A model generated the notes under the pieces. The model was not told the DNA's origin. It searched no databases and was given only the letters and a program-made list of their open reading frames with translations. Positions 1 to 5,808 of a stretch of 5,808 nucleotides of DNA are shown piece after piece. The translations under genes and the position numbers were made by a program. Location: IMG/VR virus record IMGVR_UViG_2548876695_000016. One strand, written 5' to 3'. Position 1 is the first letter of the stretch. The number at the start of each line of letters is the position of its first letter. The stretch comes from a virus (taxonomy: Duplodnaviria; Heunggongvirae; Uroviricota; Caudoviricetes).

Positions 1-92
1 GGCTGCCAGCCCTCTTTCAGTTTGTGTGTCAGCTTTTCCGCAAGGTCTGACGGCGACGCCGCCCTGACAACATCGTAATGTTTAATCGACAT
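1..92 (-). CDS. Small phage protein, N-terminal fragment (runs off the window at position 1); possibly DUF1737-like protein preceding the lysis cassette
   Basis: Minus-strand ATG at 92-90 with GGGAGA Shine-Dalgarno about 7 nt upstream; open frame reads MSIKHYDVVRAASPSDLAEKLTHKLKEGWQ to the window edge. Not in the ORF track because it is truncated. Family resemblance is from memory only. Confidence 0.5.
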   Translation of the reverse strand, partial: MSIKHYDVVRAASPSDLAEKLTHKLKEGWQ

Positions 93-178
93 CGAATTTC
101 TCCCGTGTAGAGGAACAGAGTTAAAAAGCCGGAAGCGGAATCAAATCACAGGATGACCATCTGCCAGTGGCAGGTCAT

Positions 179-205
179 AAAAAAAAGGCTGCGCAATGCG
201 CAGCC
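179..205 (-). terminator. Rho-independent terminator on the minus strand
   Basis: Minus-strand RNA would form an 8-bp GC-rich stem (GGCUGCGC / GCGCAGCC, plus coords 187-194 and 198-205) with a 3-nt loop, immediately followed by U8 (plus-strand A8 at 179-186). About 85 nt upstream of the left-edge gene start. Confidence 0.85.
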
Positions 206-634
206 AGAACTCACAAGGAAAATGATAAAAGGAATAACACTAGTGATGTACGCATGGCGCCTCCCGCTAAGTTCTGCAATGATCAAACAGAACTCGCTAC
301 GTGCCCTTAAAACTCGATCATTTAGCCCCTCCAAGGAGGATTCACCATGCGGTTGATTTTTTAATAAACAGTAAACAAAAAAGTCAAGAATTATGCATTC
401 TGTTCTTTCATCATCGGCCACAGCAATACCACAATGCCGCAGACCAGAGCGCCATCAGTCAGTACCAACATTATCCTGCTGGTGAAATCCATCATCACCA
501 TCACTAAAAGCAGGATCACAACAGCAAGCAGACACAGTTTATAAAACAATGTTCAGAAAACGCATTCAGCATGCCTAAGGTTCTATTCCTACGAATAGCC
601 AACTTGCAACTTAAAATATTATTTATGCAGCCAA

Positions 635-1393
635 TTAAATTCTGGTCCTTACAATATCAACCTGAAGATTCTTATCTTGTGCTGATTGATAAATGACAAA
701 CCTTTTACTACCTGCATTGAAAGAAGTAGACAAAACCAGACAATTATCATAACGAGCAAGAACATAATACCAACCATCATTATAATTAATCATTTCATAT
801 TCTTTCTTAAACTGTGGTTTGTAATATCCTGTCAGAAATGAAAAAAGCCAAAAATATGCCACAAAAGCAATCATCACAATCTCAAAAAAATGTTTTTTTA
901 TAAATGGCTTATCATAGAAGCATGATACCGATAAAAATCGCCCATAAGATCTTATCGAAATTGTAACCGCCAGCGCAATCGCTGCTGACAGTAGCAAAAG
1001 AGGTACCTGAATCTTCTGTCTCAATATAGAAAACTCAATAATTGCCGGCACAAACAATAATTCCACAGCAAAATAAAGGCGAAATACATTTAGCTCTTGC
1101 ATAGAATGTTTTCTTTTCACTGCGAAAAAGAATACAACACCAATACCCCAACCGATAAGAAATATAGCAATGACGATAACTGCAAAAAATAAACTTCTGG
1201 CAACATCATCAACACCTGCACCTACAATCCACCATGGGAAGCCGTAGTAAAAAGAAGTACCCCATCCATAGAAATAAGCACTCCCCCATCCAAGGCATCC
1301 CATGTAGGCAATAAAAAGTGAAGAACTCCTGAGCAGCGCACCATCCTTCATAACCACCCCAATACAAGATGATAACATTGGCTTACAACTCAT
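635..1393 (-). CDS. Hypothetical polytopic membrane protein (cargo gene, unknown function)
   Basis: 252-codon ORF with no competing long ORF in other frames; visibly AT-rich relative to flanking phage genes. About five hydrophobic helices (approx. residues 25-59, 67-91, 102-123, 129-147, 166-189), basic loops (KRKH, KKH), then a ~60-aa Tyr-rich hydrophilic C-terminal domain. First ATG at 1393 has no clear SD; in-frame ATGs at 1378 and 1351 (the latter preceded by GGGGTGG) are alternative starts. Confidence 0.7.
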   Translation of the reverse strand: MSCKPMLSSCIGVVMKDGALLRSSSLFIAYMGCLGWGSAYFYGWGTSFYYGFPWWIVGAGVDDVARSLFFAVIVIAIFLIGWGIGVVFFFAVKRKHSMQELNVFRLYFAVELLFVPAIIEFSILRQKIQVPLLLLSAAIALAVTISIRSYGRFLSVSCFYDKPFIKKHFFEIVMIAFVAYFWLFSFLTGYYKPQFKKEYEMINYNDGWYYVLARYDNCLVLSTSFNAGSKRFVIYQSAQDKNLQVDIVRTRI

Positions 1394-1490
1394 AACAAAA
1401 GCAATTCAATGCCGTCAAGAGGTTACAGGCTAAAAAAACTCTATTACATAGCAGCCAGCATGTTTACCGTACAAGTACAACTCAGGGCAT

Positions 1491-1514
1491 AAAAAAAACC
1501 CACTCGGCAGCGGG
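1491..1514 (-). terminator. Intrinsic terminator just downstream of the Q-like gene (candidate tR')
   Basis: Minus-strand RNA CCCGCUGCCGAGUGGG forms a 6-bp stem (including one G-U pair) with a GCCG loop, followed directly by U8 (plus-strand A8 at 1491-1498). The plus-strand equivalent has an A-C mismatch, so it is orientation-specific. Confidence 0.55.
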
Positions 1515-1550
1515 TTTATACATTTTTTACAACATACCAAATTTGCATGA

Positions 1551-1579
1551 AGTATATGGCTTTTAATCCAGTTTTGCAA
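1551..1579 (-). promoter_or_regulatory. Candidate sigma70 late promoter (pR'-like) overlapping the 3' end of the Q-like gene
   Basis: Minus strand: -35 TTGCAA (1579-1574), 17-nt spacer, -10 TATACT (1556-1551). Predicted start near 1544 gives a ~50-nt transcript ending at the 1491-1514 terminator; the initial transcribed region contains -10-like elements (TATGTT, TGTATAAA) of the kind that induce sigma-dependent pausing at Q-utilisation sites. Confidence 0.4.
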
Positions 1580-2336
1580 TATTTTGCTGTAAAAATGCTG
1601 CCTTTTGTTTTGAACGTGTTCTCGTCACAAGCAATAAAGCATCACTATCAAGCTGTAGAAAAATGTGCTTCATTGCAACCCAGCGTTCAGTAAATGTCTC
1701 GGACCAGTTTTTTGTTGTCACTCCCACCAATGATGCCAGTGTCTGGTATTCATAGGCCTCACGCCCTGCAAGTTCGCTCTTCACATCCTGTGCAGCCAGC
1801 CAGATTAACGTCTTCAGGCGATCCAGTGTCTTACCTGCAATTTTTCTGTTACTTAACAAATCTTTAAACTCGCTCCATGCCCATTGCGTTATGGTGACCT
1901 GATGCCCCCATCGAACGCTTTCGCTGTAACACCAAAGCAACCATGCTTTCTGATGTTCATCGAGAGACAAAACCGCGCGGCGCCATGAAGAGGTTGAGAA
2001 TTCAACCGGGCTGACCAAAGCAATGGATGAACCTTTTGCGTACGACTGCTTACCGGAAGTCGGCGTATTATCCAGCGTAATCATCTTGCCAGTTACCACA
2101 TCCAGAATGCGCGGCTTCTTTCGTTTGTATGTACCAGTATCAAATTGTGCATGCTCCTGCCAGGCTTCGAGCTGGCCTTTCGTTGCTCCGTTCAAGTCAG
2201 CAGTAGCTGCCATAAGTTGCTCACGAACATACTGTAAATATTGGGTATTCATGCAGTAAATCCTTTCTATATTTTGGCATAATTCTTCAACATTCGGTAA
2301 TCGTTCAAAACCGAATCGGGGAAACGACATAAGCAC
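1563..2336 (-). CDS. Putative late-gene antitermination protein Q (non-lambda Q family)
   Basis: 257-aa ORF (track start is GTG at 2336; an ATG at 2330 gives 255 aa) in the Q position downstream of nin genes, followed at once by a promoter-like element and terminator. It replaces a lambda-type Q whose 5' remnant lies at 3813-3902. Family assignment is by position and recalled size of ~250-aa Q proteins, not sequence comparison. Confidence 0.6.
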   Translation of the reverse strand: MLMSFPRFGFERLPNVEELCQNIERIYCMNTQYLQYVREQLMAATADLNGATKGQLEAWQEHAQFDTGTYKRKKPRILDVVTGKMITLDNTPTSGKQSYAKGSSIALVSPVEFSTSSWRRAVLSLDEHQKAWLLWCYSESVRWGHQVTITQWAWSEFKDLLSNRKIAGKTLDRLKTLIWLAAQDVKSELAGREAYEYQTLASLVGVTTKNWSETFTERWVAMKHIFLQLDSDALLLVTRTRSKQKAAFLQQNIAKLD

Positions 2337-2727
2337 AGGAGCCCCCAGCGACAGCGAAGGAGTTCTGATATATAAGACTCAGACATCATTCATTCCCCGG
2401 TTCTCCAATATCTGTTTCACTCATCATCCATAACTACCTGTAATTGCCCCCCTTTTTTTTGTAACAGTTCTTATATTGCTATATAGAATAGCCATTACTA
2501 ATGCATTTAAATTTAATAAAATAAAAATTATAAAAAACATAAAACACCACGTAAACACACTTAATAAAAACACCGTTACATTAAAAGATAATAAAAACCG
2601 CAATAAAAAACGAATAAATCAATTGTCTCACGCAATTATAAAACATCATATTGATTACGCACCTTGTATTACAAACTCATGTATGTAAAATACGCGCACC
2701 ATTCAAAAAAAAGGAAGACAATAACAT

Positions 2728-3687
2728 ATGAAAAAAAGTGTCATCGCTGGCGTCTTTATTGCTCTGTCATTTACCACGTGTTCAGCTATCGCGAACAGCC
2801 TTGCATTATCATTAGCAAATGATGATGCAGGGAAGTTTCAACCAATACTTAATGATATTTATGGCAATAAACATGAAAACAGAGATGATTACTCACAAGG
2901 CTTATTTCTGGGATATAGCCACGATATCTCAGACTCGAGCCAATTATCTCTCCATATTGCGCAAGATATTTACTCTCCATCAGGCAGTAATAAAAGACAC
3001 AACACAGCTGTAACTGGAGACAGAGCTTTTAGTGCATACACTCACACTGGTATTGAATGGAACTCCCTTGCGAATGACTGGATTCGCTATCGATTAGGTA
3101 CTGACATAGGTGTTGTTGGCCCCGACGCAGGCGGTCAGAAAGTACAAAATAAAGCTCATGAGATTATTGGGGCAGAAAAATATCATGCATGGGATGATCA
3201 AATAGAGAATCGCTACGGTTATACTGTAAAAGGGATGCTATCCATGACACCAAGTATGGATATTTTAGGTGCTAATGTTGGATTATACCCTGAAGTTTCT
3301 GCTGTTACTGGAAACTTATTTCAATATGTAGCATATGGCGCAACCATTGCCATTGGTAATGATAAAACCTTCAATTCGGATAATGGCTTTGGTCTGCTGG
3401 CTCCCCGTGGTTTAATGCATATGTCCGATACAAGCGGATTCAAATACAAGATTTTTGCAGGTATGGAAAGACGAGATGTCAATCGCAACTATACTCTCGA
3501 AGGAAAAACAATACAGACGAAACAAACAACAGTATCGCTAAACAAAACTGTTGATGAATATCAAGTTGGCGCAACAATTGGGTATGCACCTGTAGCCTTC
3601 ACACTAGCATTTAATAAAGTAACATCAGAATTCAAGACAGGGGATGACTATTCATTTATAAATGGAGCAATCACCTTCTTTTTTTAA
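2728..3687 (+). CDS. lpxR: Lipid A 3'-O-deacylase LpxR family outer-membrane beta-barrel protein
   Basis: 319 aa with AGGAAG Shine-Dalgarno upstream of ATG 2728; N-terminal signal peptide MKKSVIAGVFIALSFTTCSAIA; C-terminal FFF typical of outer-membrane barrels. With cleavage after AIA, mature Asn9-Asp10 (codons at 2818-2823) and His122 (3157-3159) coincide with the LpxR catalytic residues as I recall them; position 34 is Ser where I recall Thr. Length matches the 319-aa Salmonella LpxR precursor. AT-rich gene and flanks. Confidence 0.85.
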   Translation: MKKSVIAGVFIALSFTTCSAIANSLALSLANDDAGKFQPILNDIYGNKHENRDDYSQGLFLGYSHDISDSSQLSLHIAQDIYSPSGSNKRHNTAVTGDRAFSAYTHTGIEWNSLANDWIRYRLGTDIGVVGPDAGGQKVQNKAHEIIGAEKYHAWDDQIENRYGYTVKGMLSMTPSMDILGANVGLYPEVSAVTGNLFQYVAYGATIAIGNDKTFNSDNGFGLLAPRGLMHMSDTSGFKYKIFAGMERRDVNRNYTLEGKTIQTKQTTVSLNKTVDEYQVGATIGYAPVAFTLAFNKVTSEFKTGDDYSFINGAITFFF

Positions 3688-3812
3688 CTGAATTGAATTC
3701 AATCAAAATAACATAAGTCCAACAAAAACATAAAGTGCGAAATGAATGCCAGCTCCATTTATTTCGCACTATAAAAGATTAAAAGTTGCAATAAAATAAT
3801 AAAATGACTCAG

Positions 3813-3902
3813 TTACGAAAACCAATAAACTGTGGCCAGTAGTGAGTCGCTCATCATCGGGCTTTTTGGCGAATGAAATTTAGCTACGCTTTCGAGTCTC
3901 AT
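3813..3902 (-). pseudogene. 5' remnant of a lambda-type Q antiterminator gene (29 codons then stop)
   Basis: Minus-strand ATG at 3902-3900 overlaps the phosphatase stop (ATGA) and reads [29 protein letters not shown]. The first 20 residues equal the lambda Q N-terminus as I recall it ([25 protein letters not shown]...); similarity decays over codons 21-27 and the frame terminates. Confidence 0.75.
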
Positions 3903-4564
3903 GCGCCTTCTCCCTGTACCTGAATCAATGTGAGGTTTCCGCAGAACACTGCGCCAGTATCGATATACATCTGGTTGGCAAATTTGAGTGGTTTCACTGC
4001 TGGCGTATGACCAAAGATGAACGTGTCCGCGCCTTTGATTTCTTTCACGATCCCGTCTTGTGAGTTGCTGATTCGTTCGCGGTTCCAGATTACCTGCTGA
4101 TGATCAACTGGCTTTCCAAACTCGTATTTATCACAAGGATAATCGGCGTGGCAAATGACATATTTTTTATCTTTGCTCACCAGTTCGATGATTAACGGAA
4201 GTTCTTCTGCTTTATGGGCAAGAACTTTAGCCAGAGTCTCTTTGTCGTAATCGAGATTAAAGAACCAGCCACCGCCATTAAGCAGCCAGTGATTAACGTT
4301 TCCACGCTCTGATAAGCCATCAATCATCATTTGCTCATGGTTTCCACGCACAGCTCTGAACCAGGGGAATGTGATTAATTCCAGACATTCGACGTTCTCT
4401 GTACCGCGATCAACCAAATCGCCAACCGAGATGAGCAGGTCTTTTTTGGTGTCGAATCCAATCGTATCCAGTTTGTTCATCAGGTTCGTGTAGCATCCGT
4501 GCAGGTCGCCAGCTACCCAAATATTTCGGTATTTGCTGCCATCAATTCTTTCGTAGATATTCAT
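3899..4564 (-). CDS. ninI: Ser/Thr protein phosphatase, lambda phosphatase (NinI / ORF221) homolog
   Basis: 221 aa, near-identical to the recalled lambda phosphatase; metallophosphatase motifs GDLHG, GDLVDRG and GNHE present; start ATG overlaps the ninG stop (ATGA). Confidence 0.93.
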
Positions 4565-5175
4565 GCAGCCTCACTTCTGCTGTTTCGCAGGTCTTTGAGT
4601 TTCTGTTGGTACTCTGCCTTGATCGCCTTGCACTCTTCGACAGTCCAGCGATGGCGGTTATGGTTTGATTCGATTTCGTCTACTGCTTCCTGCCCGATGC
4701 GGCTAATCAGTTCGACGCGATACGGAACGAGATTTCCGCTTTTGTGCTGGTTGCACACCACGCATTGCTTGTGAATATTGCGTTCATCAAATCGGAGTTG
4801 AGGTGCCGCAGCAGTTGTCCGGTAATGTCCGGCATCCCACTGAGCAGACGTGAGCGTTCCGCACGAGATACATGGTAAGTCGCGGTCTCTTTCTCTGATG
4901 AAGGCGTTTACGGCTTGTTGGGCTTGTTTAATCCAGTAACTGCGGGGCTTTAAGGCGAGTTTTCGAATCTTAAGTTTATCTTTCTGTTTCTGCTCCTCTC
5001 GTCGTCGTTTCTTCTCTGCTGCTTTTTCCGCTTTTTCGCGTTCTTTACTTCGTCGTTCGAGTGCTATCTTGGTTCCACACTCTGGAGAGCACCACCACTG
5101 ATTAGCGAATGCAAGGTGAAACCATTCCCGACATTCATCGTTTTTACATCGTCTTCGCGCTGGTTTAGCCATCAT
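4561..5175 (-). CDS. ninG: NinG (Rap) recombination-associated protein
   Basis: 204 aa beginning [19 protein letters not shown] with Cys-rich motifs ([24 protein letters not shown]), matching recalled lambda NinG; start overlaps the ninF 3' end. Confidence 0.92.
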
Positions 5176-5335
5176 CTTCTTCCTCGTGCATCGAGCTATT
5201 CGAATCGCTCATCAGCTCTGCACAGCAGTGCTCACACACGTGAACTTCCAGCACATGCAGCTTCTGACCGCAATTAGCGCACGTTAAAGCCCGCTCGACG
5301 CTTTCTTGTTCGTAACTTCGATTTGGGTCAATCAC
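5165..5335 (-). CDS. ninF: NinF
   Basis: Frame matches recalled lambda NinF (…[26 protein letters not shown]…EEEDDG). I place the start at GTG 5335-5333 ([10 protein letters not shown]…, 56 aa), which overlaps the ninE stop as GTGA and has GAGGAA 7 nt upstream. The track's 70-aa version starting at 5377 would overlap ninE by 46 nt. Confidence 0.85.
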
Positions 5336-5514
5336 CTTGTATTCCTCGCACGATGTCTTAGCCACCGGATATCCCACAGGTGAGCCGTGTAGTTGAAGGT
5401 TTTTACGTCAGATTCTTTTGGGATTGGCTTGCGTTTATTTCTGGAGCGTTTCGTTGGAAGGTATTTGCAGTTTTCGCAGATGATGTCGGTGAAACTTCGT
5501 CGTTGTCGCCTCAT
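5332..5514 (-). CDS. ninE: NinE
   Basis: 60 aa [60 protein letters not shown], matching recalled lambda NinE; AGGAGG Shine-Dalgarno 5 nt upstream of the ATG at 5514. Confidence 0.9.
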
Positions 5515-5808
5515 GTCGCCCTCCTGACGCCCTGCCCGATCGCCATCAATGCCGCTTTGGATACGATAGTAAACATCCGTCGAGGACTAATGAACGGTCG
5601 CCAAATCAGCAGCATGGAGCCTTTGCTGTTTCCCTTCTTCTCCAGCCCTGTCGATGGTTCGATAAAATTAATCCGTCCATCAGTGATAATACGAACTTCG
5701 TCAACACTCTCCAGAGCCTTGCTGAACCATCCGACTGAACCGCCCCGGGAATCCTGGAGACTAAACTCCCTGAGAAAGAGGTAAACAGGATGACTAAAAA
5801 TACACGTT
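5511..5808 (-). CDS. C-terminal fragment of an upstream nin-region gene (truncated by window edge), function unknown
   Basis: Minus-strand frame open across all 298 nt from the window edge, ending …[15 protein letters not shown] with TGA at 5513-5511 overlapping the ninE ATG (ATGA). Not in the ORF track because no start lies inside the window. The plus-strand ORF 5380..5784 covering the same DNA is antisense and likely spurious. Confidence 0.6.

What the first reader, a model, noticed from the sequence alone, without database searches (positions are those of the whole stretch)
2728..3687. Lipid A deacylase (LpxR) carried as antisense-oriented prophage cargo between the phosphatase gene and Q
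The gene has a signal peptide, a C-terminal Phe, and Asn9/Asp10/His122 at the mature-protein positions I recall for Salmonella LpxR. LpxR removes the 3'-acyloxyacyl moiety of lipid A, which dampens TLR4 recognition, so this is a host-interaction function moved by a phage. It is transcribed convergently with the phage early/Q transcript, so read-through toward Q must cross lpxR antisense. This could couple lpxR silencing to induction, or couple Q expression to lpxR transcription.
Basis: partly seen in the sequence, partly recalled or inferred. Interest (0 to 1): 0.55.

Follow-up and report, generated by a model that had tools for sequence, protein, structure and literature searches.

The report
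Known phage-borne lipid A deacylase LpxR
The gene is a genuine, intact lipid A deacylase (LpxR) carried backwards between the nin genes and the late-gene activator Q of a lambda-like prophage, but the gene, its activity in pathogenic E. coli and its place in phage 434 are already on record, so it is ordinary.

Summary
ORF 2728-3687 (+) encodes a 319-aa LpxR: Pfam PF09982 at 6.8e-40, and an end-to-end match to the solved Salmonella LpxR (3FID, E 3.6e-153). In a real alignment, mature N9/D10/D11/K67/H122/E128 are conserved and T34 is Ser. A signal peptide (AIA|N) and a C-terminal Phe are present.

The gene sits in a 1,433-bp low-GC foreign cassette (2399-3831). The cassette lies between a truncated lambda-type Q (first 20 codons, 3813-3902) and ylcG plus a Q82-type Q, opposite in orientation to the early operon.

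All of this is already known. RefSeq annotates the gene. The GenBank record of classical phage 434 carries the same cassette (two SNPs and two small indels across 2250-4000) and labels it LpxR. Papers report the EHEC gene as an active 3'-O-deacylase switched on by Ler/Pch.

The cassette occurs once each in 620 of 5,426 complete E. coli genomes, always with the same flanks. That points to one capture event, so the antisense orientation is inherited rather than repeatedly selected.

In this window's own prophage, and in O157:H7, IS elements have deleted pR, N and cI, so there is no early transcript to collide with.

Verdict: already known, low interest.

The parts
2728..3687 (+). lpxR coding sequence (319 aa plus stop), outer-membrane lipid A 3'-O-deacylase
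   Evidence: ORF; PF09982 at 6.8e-40; 3FID_A at E 3.6e-153; active-site residues conserved; annotated as LpxR in RefSeq and in phage 434
2728..2793 (+). Signal peptide, residues 1-22 (MKKSVIAGVFIALSFTTCSAIA), predicted cleavage AIA|NS
   Evidence: KK n-region, hydrophobic core and A-x-A motif; A22 invariant; cleavage here reproduces the 3FID mature numbering. Sequence-based inference; no signal-peptide predictor was run.
2399..3831 (.). Foreign 1,433-bp cassette: lpxR plus 329 bp upstream and 144 bp downstream
   Evidence: DLP12 ylcG homology ends at 2398 and lambda ninI-Q homology ends at 3832. GC is 28.7% / 39.4% / 28.0% (computed over 2390-2727, the CDS, and 3688-3830) against 45-49% in ninI, ninG and Q. 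Both flanks are present in exactly the 620 lpxR-positive genomes.
2399..2727 (+). AT-rich upstream region of lpxR; presumed promoter and regulatory region (promoter not mapped here)
   Evidence: About 29% GC. Sigma-70-like hits are no more frequent than in shuffles. The last 46 nt before the ATG are shared with the 80%-identical homologues L064-L066. Literature reports Ler/Pch-dependent activation.
3734..3770 (.). 15-bp hairpin 47 nt after the lpxR stop. On the - strand it is followed by UUUAUGUUUUUGUU, so it is terminator-like and faces the early operon. On the + strand there is no U tract.
   Evidence: Fold of -19.1 kcal/mol, z -5.1 on the + strand; the - strand hairpin is followed by a U-rich tail. 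Terminator function is inferred.
3813..3902 (-). Remnant of a lambda-type Q gene: 20 lambda-Q codons ([20 protein letters not shown]), then 9 unrelated codons and a stop
   Evidence: Translation; lambda DNA homology runs 71 nt into Q and stops at 3832; annotated as a truncated antiterminator in RefSeq and in 434
3899..4564 (-). NinI-type Ser/Thr phosphatase, last intact nin gene upstream of the cassette
   Evidence: PF00149 at 3.4e-16; 96% DNA identity to lambda ninI
2267..2389 (-). ylcG-like small ORF with its native upstream 9 nt; first gene after the cassette in the early-operon direction
   Evidence: 85% DNA identity to DLP12 ylcG; phrog_2705; annotated in RefSeq and 434
1563..2252 (-). 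Q82-type late antiterminator Q (annotated start MNTQ...; the open frame extends to GTG at 2336)
   Evidence: PF06323 at 1.7e-91; annotations

Best explanation
The ORF is a functional lpxR, encoding a Ca2+-dependent outer-membrane beta-barrel enzyme. By the Salmonella mechanism, His122 activates a water molecule and a Ca2+ ion held by Asn9/Asp10 polarises the ester, removing the 3'-acyloxyacyl group of lipid A; under-acylated lipid A is less bioactive. The gene is a lysogenic-conversion 'moron'. A 1.43-kb low-GC fragment carrying lpxR with its own upstream region and a 3' hairpin was captured once by a lambdoid phage. The capture joined codon 20-24 of a lambda-type Q to the rusA/ylcG boundary of a Q82-type late-control module. 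The resulting block (Q' remnant, lpxR, ylcG) then spread by phage recombination and lysogeny through EHEC/EPEC lineages and is also present in the viable phage 434. In the host it is expressed as a bacterial virulence gene under Ler/Pch, not as part of the phage programme. In this window's prophage the early operon has been deleted, so lpxR is domesticated cargo of a cryptic prophage.

Shown here: gene identity, conserved residues, cassette borders, distribution, orientation, and deletion of the early region. Taken from the literature: enzymatic activity and Ler/Pch control in EHEC. Inferred: a single capture event, and terminator function of the hairpin.
For: Identity. Mechanistic residues in Salmonella LpxR (N9, D10, T34 as Ca2+ ligands; H122 as base; D11, K67, E128): PMC6260217. 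Reduced bioactivity of the deacylated lipid A: PMC4651636. Borders and composition. Lambda has ninI followed directly by Q, so the cassette is 'more on'. Same cassette in phage 434 with a full pR-N-nin-Q operon. Present in 620/5426 E. coli genomes at >=99% identity, single copy, with both flanks co-occurring exactly. The block 2262-3913 is constant in 52 IMG/VR prophage contigs while the outer neighbours vary (NinI or NinH upstream; different Q downstream in L032/L035). EHEC LpxR 3'-O-deacylase activity and Ler/Pch activation: Ogawa et al. 2018 as reported in PMC6393859, PMC9263587 and PMC7649339. Association with LEE: PMC6724679. Early region deleted by IS elements.
Against: No enzymatic or transcript data were generated here. 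The primary papers (Ogawa 2018, Reynolds 2006, Rutten 2009) were not readable in the held library, so their content is taken from citing papers. T34 is Ser in this protein; this is conservative and is also seen in the Yersinia enterocolitica homologue, but it was not tested. No donor genome for the flanks was found. The lpxR promoter was not located: consensus scans are no better than chance.
Confidence: 0.9

Rival explanations
1. The head-on placement is a regulatory device: lpxR transcription (or the hairpin facing the early operon) throttles read-through into Q and so delays or gates lysis. Conversely, induction-driven antisense transcription silences lpxR.
For: The geometry is real. In phage 434 the only annotated route to Q is pR through nin and across lpxR antisense. 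A hairpin with a U tract faces that transcript 60 nt after the Q' remnant. Natural prophages with imm434 (cro/cI434 next to nin) plus lpxR exist, in L033, L034 and L051.
Against: The orientation stems from one ancestral event, so it carries no signal of selection. An independent prophage capture of a 71%-identical lpxR sits at the tail-fibre end instead (L057). N-modified polymerase normally ignores such terminators (established lambda biology, from my own knowledge). The early operon is deleted in this window's prophage and in O157:H7. lpxR expression tracks Ler/LEE, not the Stx-prophage modulon of that study. No transcript data are available.
Confidence: 0.08
2. LpxR serves the phage rather than the bacterium, for example by altering the outer membrane to exclude superinfecting phages or to change vesiculation.
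For: Other outer-membrane cargo sits in the same kind of phage and prophage: a Bor/Iss-like lipoprotein in 434 and the porin gene nmpC, antisense next to quuD, in DLP12. The gene is kept at 100% identity in a viable phage isolated in the 1950s.
Against: Nothing tested here bears on exclusion. The gene is strongly associated with LEE-positive pathovars and is regulated by virulence regulators. It persists in prophages that can no longer make phage.
Confidence: 0.05
3. The gene is a silent relic with no current function.
For: In O157:H7 it lies in a decayed prophage, and in this window's genome the prophage has a frameshifted terminase, has lost its early region and carries IS elements. The AT-rich upstream region is typical of silenced foreign DNA.
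Against: The ORF is intact and >=99% identical in 620 genomes across many serotypes. All catalytic residues are kept. Citing papers describe activity and regulated expression in EHEC.
Confidence: 0.03

Closest known systems
EHEC O157:H7 lpxR (Ogawa et al. 2018, Cell Microbiol 20:e12806) and the identical gene CPT_434_65 of Escherichia phage 434 (OL657226)
   Same: The coding sequence is 100% identical, with the same flanks, the same Q' remnant and the same ylcG/Q82 neighbours. This is the same gene, not merely a relative.
   Different: Nothing of substance. Relative to 434 the window has a 1-nt poly-T difference (about 2453), two SNPs upstream (2552, 2577) and an 8-bp AATAAAAT duplication (3790-3797). 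It also lacks the early region because of an IS3-mediated deletion.
Salmonella Typhimurium LpxR (STM1328; PDB 3FID)
   Same: About 78% identity over the mature protein (my count from the alignment) and 72-73% over the full length, with the same length. N9, D10, D11, K67, H122, E128 and the C-terminal Phe are conserved.
   Different: The Salmonella gene is chromosomal, next to thrS-side housekeeping genes and not in a prophage (L063). Thr34 is Ser here. There is no flank homology.
Lambdoid lysogenic-conversion morons encoding outer-membrane proteins (lambda bor and lom, DLP12 nmpC, the 434 Iss-like gene)
   Same: A self-contained, low-GC gene inserted between phage operon genes, oriented against phage transcription, and encoding an envelope protein that benefits the lysogen.
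   Different: The product is an enzyme acting on lipid A rather than a porin or serum-resistance lipoprotein. It sits upstream of Q inside the delayed-early operon, having destroyed one Q gene and brought the phage under a different Q.
lambda paQ antisense control of Q
   Same: Transcription antisense to the Q region on the same strand as lpxR; a paQ -35 signal is annotated inside the 434 Q gene.
   Different: paQ is CII-dependent and overlaps Q itself. lpxR starts beyond ylcG and runs away from Q, so it cannot make RNA antisense to Q. It can only collide with polymerases approaching Q.

Membership tests
LpxR lipid A 3'-O-deacylase (Pfam PF09982) | Full-length match to the family profile above the curated threshold | tested here: met
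   137.4 bits against a cut-off of 26, residues 10-318 of 319
LpxR lipid A 3'-O-deacylase (Pfam PF09982) | End-to-end homology to the structurally and biochemically characterised S. Typhimurium enzyme | tested here: met
   3FID_A at E 3.6e-153, chain 2-296 aligned to residues 24-319 with one 1-residue gap
LpxR lipid A 3'-O-deacylase (Pfam PF09982) | Catalytic His122 and Ca2+-site residues Asn9, Asp10 (with Thr34), plus Asp11, Lys67 and Glu128 | tested here: met
   H144, N31, D32, D33, K89 and E150 are present. T34 is S56, which keeps the hydroxyl. H, N, D, D and K are invariant in 14 homologues. Residue roles are taken from PMC6260217.
LpxR lipid A 3'-O-deacylase (Pfam PF09982) | Sec signal peptide and C-terminal aromatic residue of outer-membrane beta-barrels | tested here: met
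   MKK, hydrophobic core, AIA|N; C-terminal FFF; A22 and F319 invariant. Judged from the sequence only.
LpxR lipid A 3'-O-deacylase (Pfam PF09982) | 12-stranded beta-barrel fold | not tested
   No model was built. Inferred from about 78% identity (my count from the alignment) over the whole solved chain.
LpxR lipid A 3'-O-deacylase (Pfam PF09982) | [quoted passage not shown] | not testable with these tools
   Reported for the EHEC gene by Ogawa 2018, as cited in PMC6393859 and PMC7649339; the primary paper is not held.
Phage moron (lysogenic-conversion cassette) | Extra DNA absent from the same junction in related phages | tested here: met
   In lambda, ninI abuts Q. Here 1,433 bp are interposed, with breakpoints at 2398/2399 and 3831/3832.
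Phage moron (lysogenic-conversion cassette) | Base composition different from the surrounding phage genes | tested here: met
   28-39% GC against 45-49%
Phage moron (lysogenic-conversion cassette) | Own promoter and terminator, expressed from the repressed prophage | tested here: inconclusive
   A 3' hairpin is present but has no U tract in the sense direction. Promoter-like hits are at chance level. Expression in non-induced EHEC under Ler/Pch is reported in the literature.
   For this window's prophage, pR, N and cI are deleted by IS3; the same holds in O157:H7. The geometry is met in phage 434 and in some imm434 prophages, but promoter activity cannot be tested here.

The most novel reading that the evidence does not exclude
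In intact 434-like prophages, lpxR transcription driven by Ler/Pch, together with the terminator-like hairpin that faces the early operon, may act as a gate on read-through into ylcG-Q. The virulence regulon would then modulate how efficiently or how fast the prophage reaches late gene expression, and induction would reciprocally shut off lipid A deacylation. A weaker variant is that CII-dependent paQ transcription, which is co-oriented with lpxR, reads into lpxR during establishment of lysogeny.
Probability: 0.07. Interest if true: 0.5.

Novelty: already known. Interest (0 to 1): 0.13.

Why it matters
Lipid A deacylation lowers the bioactivity of lipid A, and in EHEC lpxR has been reported to attenuate the innate immune response, so a phage-borne lpxR is a real host-interaction trait moved by phages. 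That is already established: the gene is annotated, characterised in EHEC, and used as a virulence marker associated with LEE. This check adds bookkeeping only: the exact 1,433-bp cassette borders, evidence for a single capture event, and the fact that the classical phage 434 carries the same cassette as EHEC prophages. The one open point, whether head-on transcription across lpxR affects Q, would be a modest addition to lambda-type regulation if true.

Tried and rejected
1. Donor search. The single genome-contig scan returned only a Citrobacter chromosomal lpxR next to phoPQ, at 73% identity. A protein search found nothing closer than 80-85% outside Escherichia coli and E. albertii. None of the loci L003, L057 or L063-L066 shares flank DNA beyond 46 nt upstream of the ATG. 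No donor was identified.

2. MicF control. The MicF 5' end can pair with AAUGAUGAUGCA, the N31-D32-D33-A34 codons. That 12-mer is identical at the nucleotide level in five homologues of 68-80% DNA identity. However, the duplex energy (-13.3 kcal/mol) is matched by 270 of 1000 shuffles, and the primary MicF-lpxR paper is not held. I kept this as a lead only.

3. Promoter and terminator consensus scans. Counts equal the shuffle expectation, so I rejected them as evidence for the lpxR promoter. For the same reason I rejected the best hit, a - strand TTTACG-17-TATAAT at 2555-2527 pointing toward ylcG-Q, as evidence for a Q promoter.

4. Primary papers. Reading Ogawa 2018 and Reynolds 2006 failed because neither is held.

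5. Papers linking phage 434 with the lipid A deacylase: none found. A broader search found none that discusses lpxR as a lambdoid moron, apart from the 2026 Pas sRNA preprint.

6. Structure prediction was not run. With a solved structure at about 78% identity it would add nothing.

7. I considered and rejected a coding role for the antisense ORFs inside lpxR (43 and 55 aa). They are short and unsupported.

Full report

Yes. The ORF listing gives an ATG-initiated ORF of 319 codons at 2728-3687 on the + strand.
- It matches Pfam LpxR (PF09982) almost end to end: 137 bits against a cut-off of 26, E 6.8e-40.
- It matches the crystallised S. Typhimurium LpxR chain 3FID_A from residue 24 to the last residue, with one single-residue gap (E 3.6e-153).
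- The alignment offset is 22 residues. Salmonella mature positions therefore map as N9=N31, D10=D32, D11=D33, K67=K89, H122=H144 and E128=E150, all conserved. T34 is Ser56.
- The roles of these residues come from PMC6260217, which summarises the Rutten et al. structure: H122 is the general base, N9/D10/T34 bind Ca2+, and D11, K67 and E128 are accessory.
- In an alignment of 14 full-length homologues down to 50% identity, N31, D32, D33, K89, H144 and the terminal F319 are invariant. Position 56 is only ever Ser or Thr.
- The N-terminus is MKK, a hydrophobic core and A-I-A|N, and A22 is invariant. Cleavage there reproduces the Salmonella mature numbering exactly. The C-terminus is ...ITFFF.

**2. 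What surrounds it?**

All neighbouring genes are on the - strand. In the direction of phage early transcription the order is:
- NinE, NinF, NinG;
- NinI phosphatase, 3899-4564;
- a 29-codon ORF, 3813-3902, whose first 20 residues ([20 protein letters not shown]) are the start of lambda-type Q (annotated as a truncated antiterminator);
- lpxR, in the opposite orientation;
- ylcG, 2267-2389;
- a Q82-type Q, 1563-2252, PF06323 at 1.7e-91.

The borders of the insertion can be placed by DNA homology. Similarity to lambda runs through ninI and 71 nt into Q, then stops at window 3832. Similarity to DLP12 ylcG, including 9 nt upstream of it, stops at window 2398. The foreign DNA is therefore 2399-3831, or 1,433 bp: lpxR with 329 bp upstream and 144 bp downstream.

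Its composition sets it apart: 39% GC in the gene and 28-29% in the flanks, against 45-49% in ninI, ninG and Q. Lambda itself has ninI directly followed by Q. This is a classic moron that destroyed one Q gene and left the phage dependent on a different Q module.

**3. Where does the window come from, and is it known?**

- The whole window is 100% identical to EHEC chromosomes, for example strain 2011C-4251, where RefSeq annotates 'lipid A deacylase LpxR family protein'.
- Window 1-5738 is 99.7% identical to the classical temperate phage 434 (OL657226, 'Paris sewer late 1950s'). Its curated record already labels the gene 'outer membrane beta-barrel lipid A deacylase LpxR'. It also annotates the Q N-terminal fragment, ylcG and the Q82-like Q.
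- lpxR occurs in 622 of 5,426 complete E. coli genomes. In 620 of them it is >=99% identical (622 places on chromosomes; two copies, at 80-90% identity, are on plasmids).
- The upstream flank and the downstream flank are each found in exactly 620 genomes, once each.
- In 52 IMG/VR prophage contigs that share the cassette and its flanks (L004-L055), the block 2262-3913 is constant while the outer neighbours change. NinH rather than NinI abuts the Q' remnant in the one such contig checked by Pfam (L004); 22 contigs share that breakpoint at q3913. A different Q follows ylcG in L032 and L035.
- This pattern indicates one capture event followed by modular phage recombination.
- Papers held in the library state that EHEC LpxR is an active 3'-O-deacylase that dampens innate responses and is activated by Pch and Ler (Ogawa et al. 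2018, cited). They also state that lpxR belongs to the LEE modulon in transcriptome decomposition, that it is associated with LEE in population genomics, and that E. coli O157:H7 was listed as carrying lpxR in the original Salmonella work.
- A 2026 preprint uses 'Q + LpxR' as the conserved neighbourhood of the PasD sRNAs.
- PHROGs holds the family as phrog_2309, with unknown function.

The finding is therefore a correct re-identification of a known gene in a known place.

**4. Other contexts of lpxR**

- The Salmonella gene is chromosomal, among housekeeping genes (L063).
- A Citrobacter homologue lies beside phoPQ (L003).
- 80%-identical homologues from metagenomes sit next to IS fragments (L064-L066).
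- A 71%-identical copy lies at the tail-fibre end of another prophage, next to IS remnants (L057).

Phages have thus picked up lpxR at least twice, in different positions. No sequence shares the E. coli cassette's flanks beyond 46 nt upstream of the ATG, so the donor remains unknown.

**5. The regulatory speculation**

The geometry is right. In 434, pR, nutR and N are annotated and nothing is annotated between ninI and Q that could start a Q transcript. The delayed-early transcript must therefore cross lpxR antisense. I also found a 15-bp hairpin at 3734-3770 (-19.1 kcal/mol, z -5.1). In the lpxR sense it lacks a U tract. On the - strand it is followed by UUUAUGUUUUUGUU, so it looks like an intrinsic terminator facing the incoming early transcript. 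N antitermination would be expected to override it; this rests on established lambda biology and is an inference here.

Four points argue against a designed coupling:
- The orientation is inherited from one event, so it carries no evidence of selection.
- In the genome this window matches, an IS3 element follows the truncated dam gene and is followed directly by int. As a result pR, cro, cI, N, O and P are absent, and the large terminase gene is frameshifted.
- In O157:H7 the same prophage, which carries nleB2, nleC and nleH1, has an independent IS1203 deletion between O and exo.
- Expression follows Ler/LEE, not the Stx-prophage modulon of that study.

Intact imm434 prophages with lpxR do exist (L033, L034, L051), so the idea can be tested. 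Nothing available here supports it.

**6. Leads that did not mature**

- MicF is reported to repress Salmonella lpxR at the ribosome-binding site and inside the coding sequence. The MicF 5' end can pair with AAUGAUGAUGCA, the N31-D32-D33-A34 codons. These 12 nt are identical in five homologues of 68-80% DNA identity, which hints at nucleotide-level constraint. However, the predicted duplex is no better than 27% of shuffles.
- Promoter-like hexamers in the AT-rich upstream region are at chance frequency.

**7. Verdict**

The identification and the prophage-cargo reading are supported. The coupling hypothesis is unsupported, and it is moot for this particular defective prophage. The feature is already known, so interest is low.

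Noticed in passing
window 176-380, - strand: STnc100-like structured RNA (Rfam RF02076, 41.4 bits against a gathering score of 47, E 1.3e-06) ending in a strong terminator (205-187). It lies between the DUF3927 gene and the SASA esterase gene. A 2026 preprint reports that the PasD sRNAs are structurally related to STnc100 and lie within 10 kb of Q and LpxR, so this is probably a PasD-family sRNA.
   Followed up: partly
window 1487-1556, - strand: Immediately after the Q stop there is a promoter-like site (1579-1551) followed by a hairpin plus U tract (1517-1496), with a weak STnc240 hit. A terminator is annotated at the same place in phage 434. This looks like the late promoter leader and tR' on which the Q82-type Q would act.
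   Followed up: no
window 5739-5808 and L001 25511-28074: Homology to phage 434 stops at 5738, inside the dam methyltransferase gene, and an IS3-family element begins there, followed directly by the integrase. The immunity, replication and recombination regions of the prophage at the ybhC (att-lambda) site are therefore deleted. O157:H7 has a different IS1203-bounded deletion in the equivalent prophage.
   Followed up: yes
window 635-1378 and 391-549, - strand: Two membrane-protein genes lie just downstream of Q/tR', where Shiga toxin genes sit in Stx phages. One is a 247-aa protein with no Pfam match (phrog_1521; one RefSeq record names it 'STM1630 family'), with 36% GC over the gene. The other is a DUF3927 protein, labelled TciB in phage 434. 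Function is unknown; they are probably further cargo.
   Followed up: partly
window 2818-2829, + strand: AATGATGATGCA, the codons for the active-site N-D-D-A, is complementary to the 5' end of the core-genome sRNA MicF. It is identical at every synonymous position in five lpxR homologues of 68-80% DNA identity. The duplex energy is not better than shuffles (270 of 1000).
   Followed up: partly
window 2555-2527, - strand: The best sigma-70-like match in the window (TTTACG-17-TATAAT, 10 of 12) lies in the lpxR upstream region and points toward ylcG and Q. One of the two SNPs relative to phage 434 (2552) falls in its -35 hexamer. In a 29% GC region this may well be chance.
   Followed up: no
window 4555-4561: NinG abuts NinI directly. 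Lambda has NinH between them. In IMG/VR contig L004, NinH rather than NinI lies next to the Q' remnant; 21 other contigs share its breakpoint at 3913.
   Followed up: partly
window 3790-3797, about 2453, 2552, 2577: These are the only differences from phage 434 across 2250-4000: an 8-bp AATAAAAT duplication in the 3' flank, a 1-nt poly-T length change, and two SNPs upstream of lpxR. Across E. coli the upstream flank varies more (432 of 620 genomes at 95-99%) than the coding sequence (620 at >=99%).
   Followed up: no
L002 6024-6029 (window about 1578-1583, + strand): The phage 434 record annotates a CII-dependent paQ -35 signal inside Q, on the same strand as lpxR. If a paQ transcript were not terminated it would run toward lpxR in the sense direction.
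   Followed up: no
NZ_AP045065.1 48957-49835 (E. coli plasmid); P0002: A second lpxR allele, at 83% DNA and 85% protein identity, occurs on two E. coli plasmids. The gene therefore also travels on plasmids.
   Followed up: no
L003 5995-9701: In Citrobacter sp. ANG330 a 73%-identical lpxR lies about 600 bp upstream of phoP-phoQ, on the same strand. This is a suggestive chromosomal linkage of a lipid A-modifying enzyme with the regulator of lipid A remodelling.
   Followed up: no
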